NCBI GenBank assembly: GCA_030603385.1
Contig: JAUVXW010000013.1
Coordinates: 1 to 64,000, forward strand
From: Promethearchaeota archaeon
Lineage (GTDB): Archaea > Asgardarchaeota > Lokiarchaeia > Sigyniarchaeales > SOKP01
Length of the DNA stretch: 64,000 nucleotides
Reading direction: 5' to 3'
A program made the translations under genes and the position numbers. The notes under the pieces were generated by a model, which was given only the letters and a program-made list of their open reading frames with translations, was not told the DNA's origin and did no database searches. Every line of letters begins with the position of its first letter. The first letter of the stretch is position 1. Positions 9,542 to 14,263 of the stretch are shown here, in pieces.

Positions 9542-9922
9542 ATGGCTAAAGAACCCAAAATTGAGAAATTAAAATCTAAAATCAGTTTTGGAATAAAATT
9601 TTGGCTACAATTTGAGAATAAGAGTATTTTGGGTAGCGGATGGGCGGAGTTGTTAAAAAGTATTGAGAAAAATAAGGAAGGCTCTCTAACTCAAGCGGCT
9701 AAAGAGTGTAATTATTCTTATAAGTATGCTTGGAATATTCTGAAGAGAATTGAAACGAGAACAGGAATGCCTATTGTAACAACAGGTAAAGGTGGTCCTG
9801 GAGGTGGAGGGTGGGTTAAATTAAATGAATGGGGTCATTATCTTTTATCAATCTTTAATCAATACTTTAAAGAGATTAGTAAAATTGAACAAAATCTTGG
9901 AGGAACCGTAAAAACCAACTAA
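9542..9922 (+). CDS. ModE-family winged-helix regulator (N-terminal domain only)
   Basis: LGSGWAELLKSI, GSLTQAAKECNYSYKYAW, GKGGPGGGG. Confidence 0.85.
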   Translation: MAKEPKIEKLKSKISFGIKFWLQFENKSILGSGWAELLKSIEKNKEGSLTQAAKECNYSYKYAWNILKRIETRTGMPIVTTGKGGPGGGGWVKLNEWGHYLLSIFNQYFKEISKIEQNLGGTVKTN

Positions 9923-10029
9923 TAAATAAATTTTAATTTAAATAATGACTATTTTCATTAAGATTAGTAAAATGAAATAGATTTTTTTAGAAAAGGGTTT
10001 TAGAAAAATTACATGTATGGGGTTTTAAT

Positions 10030-10458
10030 ATGGGGGAAGATCGCTTACAAAAGTTTAGTGAAATAAAAGTATCAGAGATCATGATCAAAGATCCCCTTTC
10101 TATAACTCCAGATGGAAAAATTAGTGCAACAGAACTTTTAATGTTAAGGAAAAAAATTGGGGGACTCCCTGTAGTTAAGGATCAAAAAAATAATCAATTA
10201 ATTGGAATTATCACACAAAGAGATATACGATTAGCTAGGTTTGCTATGAGTTTAGAATCACCAAATACAACTGTTAAAGATTTAATGACTTCTGAACCCT
10301 TTATAGTTAAAAAGGATGAGGTTTTAATAAACGTTTTAGAGTTGATGTTTGATAATAACATACAACGTTTACCTGTTGTAAATGATAATAACCAATTAAT
10401 TGGATTAATTGTACAAAACCAAATCTTAAAAAAATTATTTGACTATATGAAAACATAA
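10030..10458 (+). CDS. CBS-pair domain protein
   Basis: KVSEIM, GGLPVV..LIGIITQRDI, TVKDLMT, QRLPVV..LIGLI. Confidence 0.9.
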   Translation: MGEDRLQKFSEIKVSEIMIKDPLSITPDGKISATELLMLRKKIGGLPVVKDQKNNQLIGIITQRDIRLARFAMSLESPNTTVKDLMTSEPFIVKKDEVLINVLELMFDNNIQRLPVVNDNNQLIGLIVQNQILKKLFDYMKT

Positions 10459-10540
10459 TAAAACTAAAAAAACTATAAAAATCATAGTTTTGGAAATTAA
10501 TAGCAATAATTAAAAATAATAATAATAATATTGATTCAAA

Positions 10541-12064
10541 ATGGCATTACCCCTACCTGGCACACCAATTATAGTTGATATAGGCTCCGCTTATGTGAAG
10601 GTTGGATTTGCAGGAGAACCAAGCCCTAGGTTTGTATTTCCATGCATTACGGGTACAGAAAAATATAAAGCTGTAATGGTTGATGTAAGTGCCAGAGGTA
10701 TATACGTTGGTAACGACGTCTCACGAATGAGGGGTGTACTTAAAATCAAACATCCAATAGAAAGGGGCGCAATCATGGATTGGGATAGCTTCTACGAAAT
10801 CCTCAACTATATCTTCTACACTTTGCTTCGAATTGAAGATTTATCCGATTATCCAATATTTTACTGTGAATCACCTTTCATGAATAAAGAAACTAAAGAA
10901 TACATCGCAAGACTTTTATTTGAAACTCATAAAATTAAAAGTCTAATTATGATGCCAACACCCTTATTGTCATTATTCAGTGTAGGACTAACAACAGGAT
11001 TAGTCATAGAGTCAGGAGACGGTCTAACTTGGGTAGTCCCTATTATAAATGGTCAAATGATTCAACATTCCGTACAAAAGCTTCCCCTAGCTGGTGTTGA
11101 CGTCAATCACAATCTGAAAAATCTTTTAATGAGGGAAGGAATAAATATAGCATCAAGTGCAGTCGATGAAATTATTCAAGAAATTAAAGAAAAAAATTGT
11201 TATTTTGTTTTAGATCCGAACAATCCCCCCAAAACGAATGAGATGTTCAGTACTCCAATGCCAGACGGCTCTACTATAAAAATGCCTAATTATATTCTCT
11301 CTCAAGCACCAGAAGTTATGTTTAATCCAGGTATGTTAGGTTATAGCTCTGTTATGAATTTACCTGATGCTGTAATAGCTAGCTTAAGAGTATTAGATAA
11401 TAATTACTGGCACGAATTATTATCTCATATTGTAATTTCAGGAGGAAATCTTTCATATAGCGGTTTTGAGGAAAGATTCGAATCTGAGATGAATGCTGTA
11501 CTTCCTCAATTAGGTTCAATTCCACGACCAAAACCAACACTAACTACTGTAAAAAATGAATTAATTCAACTCCAAGCAACTGAAATGTCCAAGAAAAAAC
11601 ATGATACATGTAGTCATTGTGGAGCATTCGTAGATTTATCCTCTGGTATTGAATATTGTCCTTCATGTGGAGGGAGATTAGTTTTGCCTGAAATAAAAAT
11701 CGATTTATCTCCCCAAAGTGGAAAAAGAGCACTAAAAAAAGGGAATTGTCCCTTCTGTAATAAAGAGATTGCAGATATGTCATCCTCCTTTTGTCCTTAT
11801 TGTGGAAGATCAATAGAAAGTTTAGAGAAAACTGATATTCCCGAAGTTGTAAAAACAAAGACACCTGCTCAAGAATTTACTGAATACATGGAGGCTTCTA
11901 GCAAAGTTTTGAAACTCTTTGTGCCTGACAATCTACAATTTACTATTTTCAATGGAGCAGCTATTCTAGGAAGTTTACCCTCGTTTCAGAATCTTTTTAT
12001 CACCTATGAGCAATTTCAATCTAATAAAGATCTGTTATATAGGGATATAAGCGAAATTCTTTAA
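10541..12064 (+). CDS. Asgard actin-related protein with inserted double zinc ribbon
   Basis: DIGSAYVKVGFAG, PIERGAIMDWD, TTGLVIESGDG, IKEKNCY, MPDG, APEVMFNP, ISGGN, GAAILGSL; about 130-aa insert with four CxxC motifs. Confidence 0.92.
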   Translation: MALPLPGTPIIVDIGSAYVKVGFAGEPSPRFVFPCITGTEKYKAVMVDVSARGIYVGNDVSRMRGVLKIKHPIERGAIMDWDSFYEILNYIFYTLLRIEDLSDYPIFYCESPFMNKETKEYIARLLFETHKIKSLIMMPTPLLSLFSVGLTTGLVIESGDGLTWVVPIINGQMIQHSVQKLPLAGVDVNHNLKNLLMREGINIASSAVDEIIQEIKEKNCYFVLDPNNPPKTNEMFSTPMPDGSTIKMPNYILSQAPEVMFNPGMLGYSSVMNLPDAVIASLRVLDNNYWHELLSHIVISGGNLSYSGFEERFESEMNAVLPQLGSIPRPKPTLTTVKNELIQLQATEMSKKKHDTCSHCGAFVDLSSGIEYCPSCGGRLVLPEIKIDLSPQSGKRALKKGNCPFCNKEIADMSSSFCPYCGRSIESLEKTDIPEVVKTKTPAQEFTEYMEASSKVLKLFVPDNLQFTIFNGAAILGSLPSFQNLFITYEQFQSNKDLLYRDISEIL

Positions 12065-12215
12065 AATTAAAGGATTTTTGATAAAAAATTAATAAAAACC
12101 CATTTTGTCTTTTTTTTTAGGATATCTAATTAATAAGTGCCATTGATAGATAATTTTTAATTTCAAGGTAAATTTAAAATATTAAAATTTTATTCATTTA
12201 GCTTAGGTTTTTTAT

Positions 12216-13304
12216 TTGAAGAGCAAATTTCGGTATTTCACTATTCTATTCCTAGTGTTTTTTTTTACATTGAATATAATTCCGATTGTATTAGGTAAAA
12301 CACGAAATGCATATTTAATCGATTTTCTTTTTAGCACTGAGATTGAAGGTGAAGGATTTAAAAATGGGATTGAAGGGGAAGGACCCAGTAATGAGGCAAC
12401 GGCTTATGCTTTAGAGATTTTAGACTATTATGGTCGAACAGCTCATGACGTTACTGATCTCGAAACATACTTAGAAACAGAATTAGAGACTATGTTTGAC
12501 GATGATGAAATTGTACTTTATGAATTATACTACTTACTTAAATCCTTAAATGTATTAGATTTTAATTATTCAAGTTTAAAAAATAGAATCCATCAGTTTA
12601 TTAATGGAACTGAACAAATTGGCGGAGGATTTTCATTTTCAAATACATCTACATTAGCAAGTATGAGCTCAACATACTTTGTTGTTCAAGTTTTTAATTT
12701 AATAGAAGAATCTATACCAAATAAAACTGTTCATAGAGATTGGATTATATTATGTAATAATAGTGATGGTGGATACGGTGGTAATAGAAGTTTATCTTCT
12801 ACTTTACTTACCACATATTATGCCGTTTATCTTTTGGATGTATTAAGCTCATTTAATGATTTAGCAGATATAAATCTGACTTCAACCTATTTAAATTCTT
12901 TTTACATACAGAATCCATCAGATACGAATAATTTTGGGGGGTGTAAACCTGACCTCACAGCTAATTACGCCTTGATAAGCAGTACGTATCACTGTGTAAG
13001 TGCGATTTATATCATTAATGAAAGTATGCTTAATAGTGGTCAAACTACAAAATGGATATTATCTCGTCAATATTTTCAAGATGGAGGTTTTGCAGATATA
13101 ACAGAGGGAACCAGCCAGCGAATCTCATCTGTAATTTCATCGTATTATGCCTTTGAAACTTTAGATTTATTTGGTTCATTGGGAAAATTGTCAGCAGCAG
13201 TATTTATGGTAGAATTTGACTACTGGATTTTAATAATCATATTGGGGAGCATTGGCTTAGTTGCGGCTATAGGTGTAATTCTTTGGCGAAGAAGAAGAAT
13301 TTAA
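12216..13304 (+). CDS. Secreted, C-terminally membrane-anchored prenyltransferase/squalene-cyclase repeat (alpha-alpha toroid) protein
   Basis: Signal peptide; repeats GGGFS, DGGYG, FGGCK, DGGFA each followed by (S/T)(T/S)Y-aromatic helices; C-terminal TM plus RRRR. Confidence 0.8.
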   Translation: MKSKFRYFTILFLVFFFTLNIIPIVLGKTRNAYLIDFLFSTEIEGEGFKNGIEGEGPSNEATAYALEILDYYGRTAHDVTDLETYLETELETMFDDDEIVLYELYYLLKSLNVLDFNYSSLKNRIHQFINGTEQIGGGFSFSNTSTLASMSSTYFVVQVFNLIEESIPNKTVHRDWIILCNNSDGGYGGNRSLSSTLLTTYYAVYLLDVLSSFNDLADINLTSTYLNSFYIQNPSDTNNFGGCKPDLTANYALISSTYHCVSAIYIINESMLNSGQTTKWILSRQYFQDGGFADITEGTSQRISSVISSYYAFETLDLFGSLGKLSAAVFMVEFDYWILIIILGSIGLVAAIGVILWRRRRI

Positions 13305-13396
13305 TATTTTTTTACTAAAAAATAAAAGAAAATTCAAATGAGTCTTTCTTATTTTAATATGACTATAATTCTAGATTTAAAAATATATATCAAATT

Positions 13397-14263
13397 ATGA
13401 ATGATAAAATATTAGATGGAAAGTCATTAGCAGAAAAACTAAATTTGGCATTGAAAGTTAAAATTAAGGAAGCAGTAGATAGAATAGGTATTAAACCTAA
13501 AATAGTTACTATATTAGTTGGAGAAGATCCCGCTTCAAAAGTCTATTTGAATATGAAGAAGAGAACCAGTGCTTTTGTAGGTATAGAATCAGAAATTTTA
13601 GAATTAGATGAACATATTTCAAAAGAGAAAATTACAGAAAAAATCAATAAACTTAACACAAATGATAATGTACATGGTATTTTACTACAACTACCTCTTC
13701 CAAAATCCCAAGCTTCTAATACACTAAAGTATATTGAAAATATATCCCCAAAAAAGGACGTAGACGGATTAACTCCTGTAAATAAAGGTAGACTTTACGA
13801 TTATAACGAAAACCTAGCACCATGTACTCCTACAGGAATTATTACATTACTAGAATATTATAACATTGAACTAAAAGGGAAAGAAGTAGTTATCATTAAT
13901 CGTTCAAATCTTGTCGGTAAACCTTTAATCTTTATGATGCTTAAACGGAATGCTACTGTTTCAGTTTGTCATACATCCACAATAAATATTGAAAACCATA
14001 TGAGAAGAGCAGATATCTTAGTTGTAGCTGTTAGGCATCCAAATTTTGTAACTAAAGAAAAAATAAAAAAGGGTGCAATAATAATCGATGTAGGTATCAA
14101 TAGAGTCAATGGAAAATTATGTGGAGATGTAAATTTTGAAGATGTTTTTGAAAAAAGTGGTAAAATTGCTCCTTCTCCTGGGGGTATTGGCCCACTAACT
14201 GTTCACTTTTTGCTACAAAATACTTTTACAGCATATAAAAATCAATTAGGAATTAATTTTTGA
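13397..14263 (+). CDS. folD: Methylenetetrahydrofolate dehydrogenase/cyclohydrolase
   Basis: ILDGK, ASKVY, VHGILLQLPLP, KDVDG, PCTP, RSNLVGKP, DVGINR, PGGIGP. Confidence 0.95.
   Translation: MNDKILDGKSLAEKLNLALKVKIKEAVDRIGIKPKIVTILVGEDPASKVYLNMKKRTSAFVGIESEILELDEHISKEKITEKINKLNTNDNVHGILLQLPLPKSQASNTLKYIENISPKKDVDGLTPVNKGRLYDYNENLAPCTPTGIITLLEYYNIELKGKEVVIINRSNLVGKPLIFMMLKRNATVSVCHTSTINIENHMRRADILVVAVRHPNFVTKEKIKKGAIIIDVGINRVNGKLCGDVNFEDVFEKSGKIAPSPGGIGPLTVHFLLQNTFTAYKNQLGINF

What the first reader, a model, noticed from the sequence alone, without database searches (positions are those of the whole stretch)
10541..12064. Actin-related protein with a double zinc-ribbon insert and altered ATPase residues
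Seen: a full actin fold interrupted (about nt 11515-11905) by ~130 aa with CSHC/CPSC and CPFC/CPYC ribbons, placed between the equivalents of actin ITALAP and KIKIIAPPERK (about residues 322-326). By eye, actin Q137 aligns with Thr (MMPTPLLSL), H161 with Trp (TWVVPI) and D154 with Glu; a D-loop-like KYKAVMVDV is kept. Established: Q137 and H161 support ATP hydrolysis, this loop contributes to filament contacts, and Arp3 has a short insert here. Inference: a non-polymerising or capping/nucleating actin paralog with its own interaction module.
Basis: partly seen in the sequence, partly recalled or inferred. Interest (0 to 1): 0.7.

Follow-up and report, generated by a model that had tools for sequence, protein, structure and literature searches.

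The report
Asgard actin relative with zinc-ribbon insert
This is a real, strongly conserved actin-like protein of Loki-type Asgard archaea with two zinc-binding mini-domains inserted in a loop that normally joins actin subunits; it lacks actin's ATP-splitting residues, always sits beside a gene for a cell-surface membrane protein, and its function is untested.

Summary
ORF 10541-12064 (+) encodes a 507-aa protein with a complete actin fold (Pfam Actin E 9e-66; model TM 0.90-0.92 to actin). A ~130-aa insert (residues 324-455) lies exactly at actin's 322-325 loop and carries two CxxC...CxxC zinc ribbons. Actin Q137, D154 and H161 are Thr, Glu and Trp.

This is not a one-off. All insert-bearing proteins form one clade (SH-aLRT 99). 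They occur in 128 of 134 genomes of the window's GTDB family and in sister families of the same order. One of these is cultured Ca. Lokiarchaeum ossiferum, where the ortholog is the published but uncharacterised "ARP" UYP44711.1. Ten sampled genomes from other Asgard orders lack it.

Across the order Q137 is never Gln and H161 varies. The D-loop and hydrophobic groove are the best-conserved surfaces. The gene is almost always followed, on the same strand, by a type-I membrane protein with an alpha/alpha-toroid ectodomain.

Best reading (about 0.4): a hydrolysis-poor accessory or terminal actin-fold subunit that docks on Lokiactin and uses the zinc-ribbon module to bind a partner. I found no paper describing the insert. 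This scan has noted the same family in other genomes.

The parts
10541..12064 (+). Gene for the 507-aa actin-related protein with zinc-ribbon insert (stop codon included)
10565..11509 (+). N-terminal part of the actin fold (residues 9-323; subdomains 1, 2, 4 and most of 3)
   Evidence: Pfam Actin 9-322; PDB alignments 6-323; pLDDT above 90
10652..10696 (+). D-loop equivalent (residues 38-52), the best-conserved segment
10958..10960 (+). Thr140 at the position of actin Gln137
11009..11032 (+). Phosphate-2 loop ESGDGLTW, with Glu157 at actin Asp154 and Trp164 at actin His161
11510..11905 (+). Insert of about 130 aa (residues 324-455) at actin loop 322-325: linker, helix 334-351, ribbon 1, strand motif LPEIKI, variable linker, ribbon 2, variable linker, helix 442-452
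11609..11668 (+). Zinc ribbon 1 (C357, C360, C373, C376)
   Evidence: pLDDT 72-81
11747..11803 (+). Zinc ribbon 2 (C403, C406, C418, C421)
   Evidence: pLDDT about 80
11906..12061 (+). C-terminal part of the actin fold (residues 456-507; equivalent of KIKIIAPPERK...C-terminus)
12216..13304 (+). Conserved downstream partner gene: 362-aa type-I membrane protein with N-terminal signal/TM, prenyltransferase-like alpha/alpha-toroid ectodomain, C-terminal TM and a short basic tail (WRRRRI)
   Evidence: adjacency
9542..9922 (+). Conserved upstream gene: 126-aa ModE-N-like winged-helix protein
   Evidence: orthologs directly upstream of the ARP in f3 genomes
10030..10458 (+). CBS-pair protein, lying between the HTH gene and the ARP in the f1 loci read but not in the three f3 loci examined

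Best explanation
The gene encodes an accessory actin-fold protein (an Asgard 'ARP'), not the filament-building actin. Shown: it has a full actin fold whose nucleotide-binding loops are under strong constraint, but the water-positioning Gln and the catalytic His are replaced. Two zinc ribbons on flexible linkers sit in the subdomain-3 loop that in F-actin touches subdomain 4 of the next subunit along the strand. Inferred: it binds nucleotide but hydrolyses it slowly or not at all, and so acts as a stable subunit rather than a treadmilling one. It uses its highly conserved pointed-end face (D-loop, 61-65, 200-208) and hydrophobic groove to dock on Lokiactin. Because its own barbed-side subdomain-3 contact is occupied by the insert, it would sit as a terminal (end-binding or capping) or side-attached subunit. 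The zinc-ribbon module would recruit a partner. The strictly conserved gene pairing makes the co-encoded type-I surface protein, or the membrane region around its short basic tail, the leading candidate. On that reading the pair would tie actin filaments to the cell envelope.
For: Fold: Pfam Actin E 8.8e-66. AF2 model pLDDT 83.7 with the core above 90. Foldseek TM 0.90-0.92 to actins. VIA Z 45.3, rmsd 1.9 over 346 residues to actin.

Separate from the filament actin: the genome has its own 381-aa Lokiactin with Q137 and H161 intact.

One origin: all 35 insert-bearing sequences form one clade on core-only columns, SH-aLRT 99.

Catalytic loss is order-wide: position 137 is T, S or A and never Q. 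Position 161 is W, H, T, S, Y or N. D157 is often lost in family f3. Q137A abolishes hydrolysis in Arp2, Arp3 and ParM (PMC3587832).

Constraint: P1, P2 and adenosine loops score 0.94-0.99 consensus identity. D-loop 0.89, residues 61-65 1.00, groove helix 0.93. The subdomain-3 barbed face 283-294 scores 0.67, lateral 110-115 0.71 and the plug 0.75, against a core mean of 0.81.

Insert site is a filament contact: residues 322-325 contact 243-245 of the adjacent subunit (PMC7247010).

Insert is functional: eight invariant Cys, ribbons 61-65% identical, linkers 14-28% identical.

Gene pairing: the toroid membrane protein lies directly downstream on the same strand in f1 (more than 25 genomes cross-checked), in f2 (G130) and in f3 (all 9 genomes with a full-length ARP, plus two of the fragmentary ones). 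The toroid protein itself is only 24-28% identical between families.

Low abundance fits an accessory role: in L. ossiferum, Lokiactin transcripts were several-fold higher than those of the other homologues (PMC9834061).
Against: No binding, ATPase or polymerisation data exist for any member. The complex prediction with Lokiactin was not run by the tool. The hydrophobic groove on the barbed side is also well conserved, so a barbed-side partner, or even self-assembly, is not excluded. The partner's cytoplasmic tail is only about 6 residues, which is little to bind. Part of the synteny (FolD) may reflect general gene-order conservation. Toroid homologues also occur in Asgard families that lack the ARP. 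Surface-conservation sets are small, and their residue ranges come from my memory of F-actin contacts.
Confidence: 0.4

Rival explanations
1. It is a scaffold subunit of a non-cytoskeletal complex, like nuclear Arp4 or Arp8 in chromatin remodellers. On this view it is a stably nucleotide-bound actin fold whose zinc ribbons bind nucleic acid or a regulatory protein.
For: Catalytic residues are degenerate while the binding loops are kept. This resembles eukaryotic Arps that are defined by insertions. Arp4 (Z 40.6) and Arp8 (Z 34.9) are good structural matches. A ModE-N-like winged-helix gene is conserved directly upstream in f1 and f3. One source auto-annotated a member with RPABC4/Spt4-type zinc-ribbon names.
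Against: The insert is nearly charge-neutral (18 K+R against 16 D+E), and f3 inserts carry long acidic tails. No DNA-binding family matched. The D-loop, an actin-actin contact element, is the most conserved segment. Actin itself matches better than any Arp.
Confidence: 0.2
2. It forms its own homopolymer, a second and specialised filament system, with the zinc ribbons displayed on the filament surface.
For: Both the D-loop and the hydrophobic groove that receives it are highly conserved. Nucleotide-binding loops are intact in f1. ParM with the Q137A-equivalent mutation polymerises normally without ATPase activity (PMC3587832).
Against: The insert replaces the 322-325 longitudinal contact (PMC7247010). 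The lateral and subdomain-3 barbed-face segments are less conserved than the core. Only one filament type, assigned to Lokiactin, was reported in L. ossiferum cells, and the other homologues had lower transcript levels (PMC9834061).
Confidence: 0.15
3. It is a filament nucleator. It mimics an actin subunit to seed Lokiactin filaments, in the manner of Arp2/3 or a WH2-type nucleator, and the insert recruits or positions monomers.
For: The actin-like faces are conserved. f3 orthologs carry a conserved KLDRKEKKL(I/L)KKT motif inside the insert that resembles the LKKT motif of WH2/thymosin. Arp3 is a strong structural match (Z 40.3).
Against: The LKKT-like motif is absent from the window's family. 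Arp2/3 templates growth from its free barbed face, which is the face modified here. The ARPC subunits that Arp2/3 works with were not searched for in this genome. Four-residue motifs in Lys-rich sequence arise easily.
Confidence: 0.1

Closest known systems
Ca. Lokiarchaeum ossiferum actin homologue GenBank UYP44711.1 (one of three unnamed 'ARPs' in Rodrigues-Oliveira et al. 2022, PMC9834061)
   Same: It is the ortholog in the same clade (about 39-41% identity over the whole length). The insert is at the same site. Position 137 is Ser. The same downstream toroid membrane gene and upstream HTH gene are present. Identity with the published gene was shown by exact matches of both published qPCR primers inside the ORF.
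   Different: The L. ossiferum protein has one zinc ribbon instead of two, keeps His at position 161, has Cys at D157, and carries a Lys-rich motif followed by an acidic tail in the insert. The paper places it in a tree and measures transcripts but does not mention the insert ('zinc' occurs 0 times).
Lokiactin / eukaryotic actin (Pfam PF00022; best solved sequence match 9wc4 'HC1 actin')
   Same: Full four-subdomain fold, 33-39% identity, an actin-length D-loop, a conserved hydrophobic groove, and the phosphate and adenosine loops.
   Different: A 130-aa zinc-ribbon insert at loop 322-325. Q137T, D154E and H161W. A separate, well-supported clade. The genome has its own canonical Lokiactin.
Eukaryotic insertion-bearing Arps (Arp3, Arp4, Arp5, Arp8)
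   Same: They follow the same principle: an actin core kept, with family-specific insertions that carry the specific function. Some have reduced ATPase activity. Structural matches are strong (Arp4 Z 40.6, Arp3 Z 40.3, Arp8 Z 34.9).
   Different: Sequence identity is only 18-24%, lower than to actin. No eukaryotic Arp is known to me to carry zinc ribbons (from memory). Arp2 and Arp3 keep the Q137 and H161 equivalents (PMC3587832). The backbone of my tree did not resolve any link, and no named Arps were included.
DZR double zinc ribbon (Pfam PF12773) and related short zinc-ribbon families
   Same: Two CxxC-(10-12)-CPxCG ribbons. The score is just above Pfam's cut-off (28.4 against 27.3).
   Different: Here the domain is an internal insert in an actin fold rather than a terminal or free-standing module. 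The other DZR proteins of this genome are only weakly similar (E 7e-6 or worse).

Membership tests
Actin family (Pfam PF00022) | Profile score above the curated cut-off | tested here: met
   222.6 bits against cut-off 27, residues 9-322. The C-terminal strand and helices align separately at 453-498.
Actin family (Pfam PF00022) | Complete four-subdomain actin fold | tested here: met
   AF2 pLDDT 83.7. Foldseek TM (target-normalised) 0.90-0.92. VIA Z 45.3, rmsd 1.9, 346 residues aligned.
Bona fide actin / Lokiactin (filament-forming ATPase) | Catalytic Gln137 and His161 | tested here: not met
   Thr140 and Trp164. Across the order, position 137 is T, S or A.
Bona fide actin / Lokiactin (filament-forming ATPase) | Short, uninterrupted 322-325 loop (longitudinal contact) | tested here: not met
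   A 131-residue insert here, against 3-11 residues in 57 of the 58 actin-family sequences without zinc ribbons (one has 31).
Bona fide actin / Lokiactin (filament-forming ATPase) | Groups with Lokiactins in a tree | tested here: not met
   It lies in a separate clade with SH-aLRT 99. The genome's own Lokiactin groups elsewhere.
Bona fide actin / Lokiactin (filament-forming ATPase) | Polymerises and hydrolyses ATP | not testable with these tools
   Requires biochemistry.
Eukaryotic Arp2/3 (Arp3-like) | Closer to Arp3 than to actin | tested here: not met
   Arp3 (1k8k_A) gives Z 40.3 at 22% identity. Actin gives Z 45.3 at 33% identity. The best 60 PDB sequence matches are all actins.
   The paper (Liu et al. 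2013) is not held, and no named Arp3 sequence was at hand.
Nuclear Arps (Arp4/Arp8-like) | Phylogenetic grouping with Arp4 or Arp8 | tested here: inconclusive
   Structural Z is 40.6 and 34.9. The tree backbone is unresolved and contains no named Arps.
DZR double zinc ribbon (PF12773) | Two four-Cys ribbons, with a score above the cut-off | tested here: met
   28.4 bits against 27.3. Eight invariant Cys. Zinc binding itself was not tested.
Loki-order zinc-ribbon ARP clade (this report) | Actin core plus at least one zinc ribbon at loop 322-325, position 137 not Gln, and a toroid membrane gene downstream | tested here: met

The most novel reading that the evidence does not exclude
The ARP and the downstream type-I surface protein form a two-gene link between cytoskeleton and envelope. 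The ARP would cap or anchor Lokiactin filament ends at the membrane, and its zinc-ribbon module would dock on the surface protein's tail or transmembrane region. That would be an archaeal forerunner of adhesion-type coupling between actin and the cell surface. The f3 versions would additionally recruit actin monomers through an LKKT (WH2-like) motif.
Probability: 0.12. Interest if true: 0.85.

Novelty: new variant of a known kind. Interest (0 to 1): 0.6.

Why it matters
[quoted passage not shown] This clade is the clearest case so far of an Asgard ARP built the way eukaryotic Arps are: an actin core, a degenerate ATPase site and a family-specific inserted module. It also comes with a fixed genomic partner that points to the cell envelope. 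An ortholog exists in cultured Ca. L. ossiferum (UYP44711.1), where Lokiactin filaments, protrusions and crawling have been imaged. The hypothesis can therefore be tested directly by localisation, pull-down and in vitro assembly assays. A result would show whether end-binding or anchoring actin-fold proteins predate eukaryotes.

Tried and rejected
1. The first structure prediction used only 29 close orthologs and gave an unusable model (pLDDT 47). It was replaced by a run with 93 diverse sequences.

3. An Atlas feature search with the insert alone gave no usable hit.

4. VIA wide search of the whole model listed only actin-superfamily folds.

5. Literature searches for Asgard or Lokiarchaeota with actin/ARP and zinc ribbon or zinc finger gave 0 relevant papers.

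6. The Arp3 insert paper is not held. P0267, which has a 31-aa segment at the site, turned out to be an ordinary actin-like sequence and not Arp3.

7. Contigs from two RNA-seq metatranscriptome runs (X17, X18, about 93-96% identical relatives) cover parts of the gene, including the insert (10605-11267, 11428-11813). DNA carry-over is not excluded, and no contig bridges the ARP and the toroid gene, so co-transcription is not shown.

8. Aligning the upstream intergenic regions showed only an AT-rich, TATA-like box about 55 nt before the ATG, and no conserved palindrome.

9. Other double-zinc-ribbon ORFs in the genome are only weakly similar (E 7e-6 or worse), so no donor for the insert was identified.

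10. The two antisense ORFs inside the gene (10591-10776 and 11544-11864, minus strand) are mechanical ORFs within a conserved coding frame and were dismissed.

11. I rejected the idea of a chance or assembly artefact, because the architecture recurs in more than 150 genomes.

Full report
**What is in the sequence.** The ORF at 10541-12064 (+) encodes 507 residues. Pfam finds Actin at residues 9-322 (E 8.8e-66) and a double zinc ribbon at 357-422 (28.4 bits, cut-off 27.3). HMMER alignments to solved actins match query 6-323 and then 453-498. A segment of about 130 residues (324-455, nt 11510-11905) therefore interrupts the fold exactly between the actin helix ending ...ITALAP and the strand KIKIIAPPERK. 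The insert holds four Cys pairs: CSHC and CPSC, then CPFC and CPYC. In the same alignments actin Q137 is Thr140, D154 is Glu157 and H161 is Trp164.

**Structure.** A model built on close orthologs alone failed (pLDDT 47). With 93 diverse actin-family sequences the model reached pLDDT 83.7 and pTM 0.73. The actin core is above 90, and the two ribbons score 72-81. The linkers 383-398 and 427-437 are below 50. Two helices (334-351 and 442-452) flank the ribbons. Foldseek aligns the model to actins over the whole fold (target-normalised TM 0.90-0.92). VIA-align ranks actin first (Z 45.3, rmsd 1.9, 33% identity), ahead of Arp4 (40.6), Arp3 (40.3), Arp8 (34.9) and crenactin (34.5). It is therefore a full actin fold that is closer to actin than to any eukaryotic Arp class.

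**A conserved family with one origin.** The homolog search returned more than 120 clusters at 63-93% identity. All are 501-510 aa apart from four shorter, truncated or partial entries, and all but one of those carry both the Actin and zinc-ribbon domains. In 29 orthologs all eight Cys, Glu157 and Trp164 are invariant, and Thr140 is nearly so. The exhaustive representative search found more distant proteins with the same architecture at 37-59% identity. On an alignment with the insert columns removed, all 35 insert-bearing sequences form one clade (SH-aLRT 99). The backbone of the actin-family tree stayed unresolved.

**Distribution.**
- With the insert alone as query, 128 of 134 genomes of the window's GTDB family (f1) have it. 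The six without a match range from 61% to 100% complete.
- Full-length searches found 38-44% identical orthologs of 499-557 aa in sister families f2 and f3, including closed genomes.
- Ten genomes sampled from other orders and classes of the phylum gave no insert-bearing ortholog. In eight the best hit was the roughly 380-aa Lokiactin, one had only a 215-aa fragment and one had no match.
- The clade therefore appears restricted to one order of Loki-type Asgard archaea, as far as sampled.
- NCBI labels such as Thor-, Odin- or Heimdallarchaeota on proteins 72-83% identical to this one are probably loose MAG labels.

**Link to a published gene.** One f3 genome (G138) is a single contig of 6,035,313 bp. 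Both qPCR primers published for the Ca. Lokiarchaeum ossiferum 'actin homologue' UYP44711.1 (PMC9834061) match exactly inside its ARP ORF. That paper places the protein among 'ARPs' in a tree. It reports that Lokiactin transcripts were several-fold higher than those of the other homologues. It never mentions zinc or the insert. Another paper states that the functions of Asgard ARPs are unknown (PMC7444086). Four further literature searches found no description of the insert. The gene is thus known as an unnamed ARP, but its architecture is undescribed in the library I could search.

**The ATPase site.**
- The genome's own Lokiactin keeps Q137, D154 and H161.
- In 19 orthologs spanning the order, position 137 is T, S or A and never Q.
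- Position 154 is mostly E.
- Position 157 is D in most of f1 but C, T, S or E in f3.
- Position 161 is W, H, T, S, Y or N.
- Within f1 the phosphate-1, phosphate-2 and adenosine loops are among the most constrained parts of the protein (0.94-0.99 consensus identity against 0.81 for the core).

Q137 positions the attacking water and H161 acts as the base. Q137A abolishes hydrolysis in Arp2, Arp3 and ParM without blocking nucleation or polymerisation (PMC3587832). From this I infer that nucleotide binding is kept while hydrolysis is weak or absent. I do not infer that the protein cannot assemble.

**The insert and the contact surfaces.** In F-actin, residues 322-325 of subdomain 3 contact residues 243-245 of subdomain 4 in the next subunit along the strand (PMC7247010). 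The insert sits in that loop. Its ribbons are conserved (61-65% mean pairwise identity) and its linkers are not (14-28%), as expected for folded modules on flexible tethers. The surface segments compare as follows in f1 consensus identity:

| Segment | Consensus identity |
|---|---|
| D-loop | 0.89 |
| Residues 61-65 | 1.00 |
| Residues 200-208 | 0.89 |
| Groove helix 139-148 | 0.93 |
| Core mean | 0.81 |
| Subdomain-3 barbed face 283-294 | 0.67 |
| W-loop | 0.68 |
| C-terminus | 0.66 |
| Lateral 110-115 | 0.71 |
| Hydrophobic plug | 0.75 |

The residue ranges come from my memory of F-actin contacts and the sets are small, so this is suggestive only. The pattern fits a protein that docks through actin-type pointed-face and groove contacts but does not need the lateral and barbed-side subdomain-3 contacts of a two-stranded filament.

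**Genomic context.** In f1 loci the gene order is MBL hydrolase (-), ModE-N-like HTH (+), CBS protein (+), ARP (+), prenyltransferase-like toroid membrane protein (+), FolD (+). In three f3 genomes the trio HTH, ARP and toroid protein is kept with spacers of 41-100 nt, with FolD next to it or two genes further on. The ARP there is only 34-39% identical to the window's, and the toroid protein only 24-27%.

Across f3, every genome with a full-length ARP on a contig has its single best toroid match directly downstream on the same strand (9 of 9). Two of the three genomes with only ARP fragments, G133 and G144, show the same arrangement; in the third, G134, the toroid neighbour is a zinc-ribbon ORF not shown to be the ARP. 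Cross-checking coordinates between searches gives the same adjacency in more than 25 f1 genomes and in f2.

The partner has an N-terminal signal/TM segment, an alpha/alpha-toroid domain, a C-terminal TM segment and a 6-7-residue basic tail ending in RI. It is therefore a type-I surface protein. Toroid homologues also exist in Asgard families without the ARP. The pairing is strong evidence of a functional link. What that link is remains inference.

**Expression.** The L. ossiferum ortholog was assayed by RT-qPCR (PMC9834061). Contigs from two RNA-seq metatranscriptome runs, about 93-96% identical to the window, cover parts of the gene including the insert. DNA carry-over is not excluded, and nothing bridges to the neighbouring genes.

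**Explanation and rivals.**
- Best reading (confidence about 0.4): a hydrolysis-poor accessory actin-fold subunit that docks on Lokiactin and, because its own barbed-side contact carries the insert, acts as a terminal or side-attached subunit. Its zinc-ribbon module recruits a partner, most likely at the membrane with the co-encoded surface protein.
- Arp4/Arp8-like scaffold whose ribbons bind nucleic acid or a regulator (0.2). The conserved upstream HTH gene favours it. The near-neutral or acidic insert argues against it.
- A separate homopolymer (0.15).
- A nucleator (0.1), hinted at by an LKKT-like motif in f3 inserts only.

The planned complex prediction with Lokiactin was not run by the tool.

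**Novelty and earlier notes.** This scan has reported the same family from other genomes with similar conclusions. My checks of the order-wide spread, the L. ossiferum ortholog and the membrane-protein neighbour were made independently here and agree with those notes. The finding is a new variant of a known kind: an Asgard ARP with an undescribed inserted module and a fixed genomic partner, testable in a cultured organism.

Noticed in passing
window 9542-14263; L027, L028, L029: The gene order ModE-N-like HTH, ARP, toroid type-I membrane protein is kept between GTDB families whose ARPs are only 34-39% identical. FolD follows directly in two of the three f3 loci read and two genes later in the third. 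Spacers between the first three genes are as short as 41-48 nt in one f3 genome. The CBS gene between HTH and ARP was seen in the f1 loci read and not in the three f3 loci.
   Followed up: yes
L028 5624-7297, L029 5460-7118, L027 5804-7303, L031-L035: In f3 orthologs the insert carries a conserved KLDRKEKKL(I/L)KKT motif followed by ...ESEYG and an acidic tail. The LKKT core resembles the actin-binding motif of WH2/thymosin-beta4. The motif is absent from the window's family.
   Followed up: partly
L027 5804-7303 (-): The Ca. L. ossiferum ortholog (UYP44711.1, identified by exact primer matches) and its congener G139 have only one zinc ribbon and keep His at the H161 position. Ribbon number and the residue at 161 therefore vary within the clade.
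   Followed up: yes
L002 1489-2610 (+); L004 1438-2625 (-): The genome has two further insert-free ARPs with altered catalytic residues. One is 373 aa with Gly at Q137, Glu at D154 and Arg at H161. The other is a very divergent 395-aa protein. Degenerate ATPase sites seem to be the rule for Asgard ARPs.
   Followed up: partly
one search hit list: Proteins 72-83% identical to this one carry NCBI organism labels of Thor-, Odin-, Heimdall-, Hod- and Hermodarchaeota. The genome search shows that the clade is confined to one Loki-type order. These MAG labels are probably unreliable.
   Followed up: partly
window 12216-13304 and orthologs: The toroid membrane proteins all end in a short basic tail with a conserved C-terminal ...(K/R)(N/R)RI (WRRRRI in f1, YKYKNRI in f3). 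Homologues of about 406 aa occur in other Asgard families that lack the ARP (for example 13 of 19 genomes of family f19).
   Followed up: partly
window 10470-10485: An AT-rich, TATA-like box (CTATAAAAAT; TTATAAAAAA in a relative) lies about 55 nt upstream of the ARP start codon. This suggests the gene has its own promoter in f1 despite the conserved cluster.
   Followed up: partly
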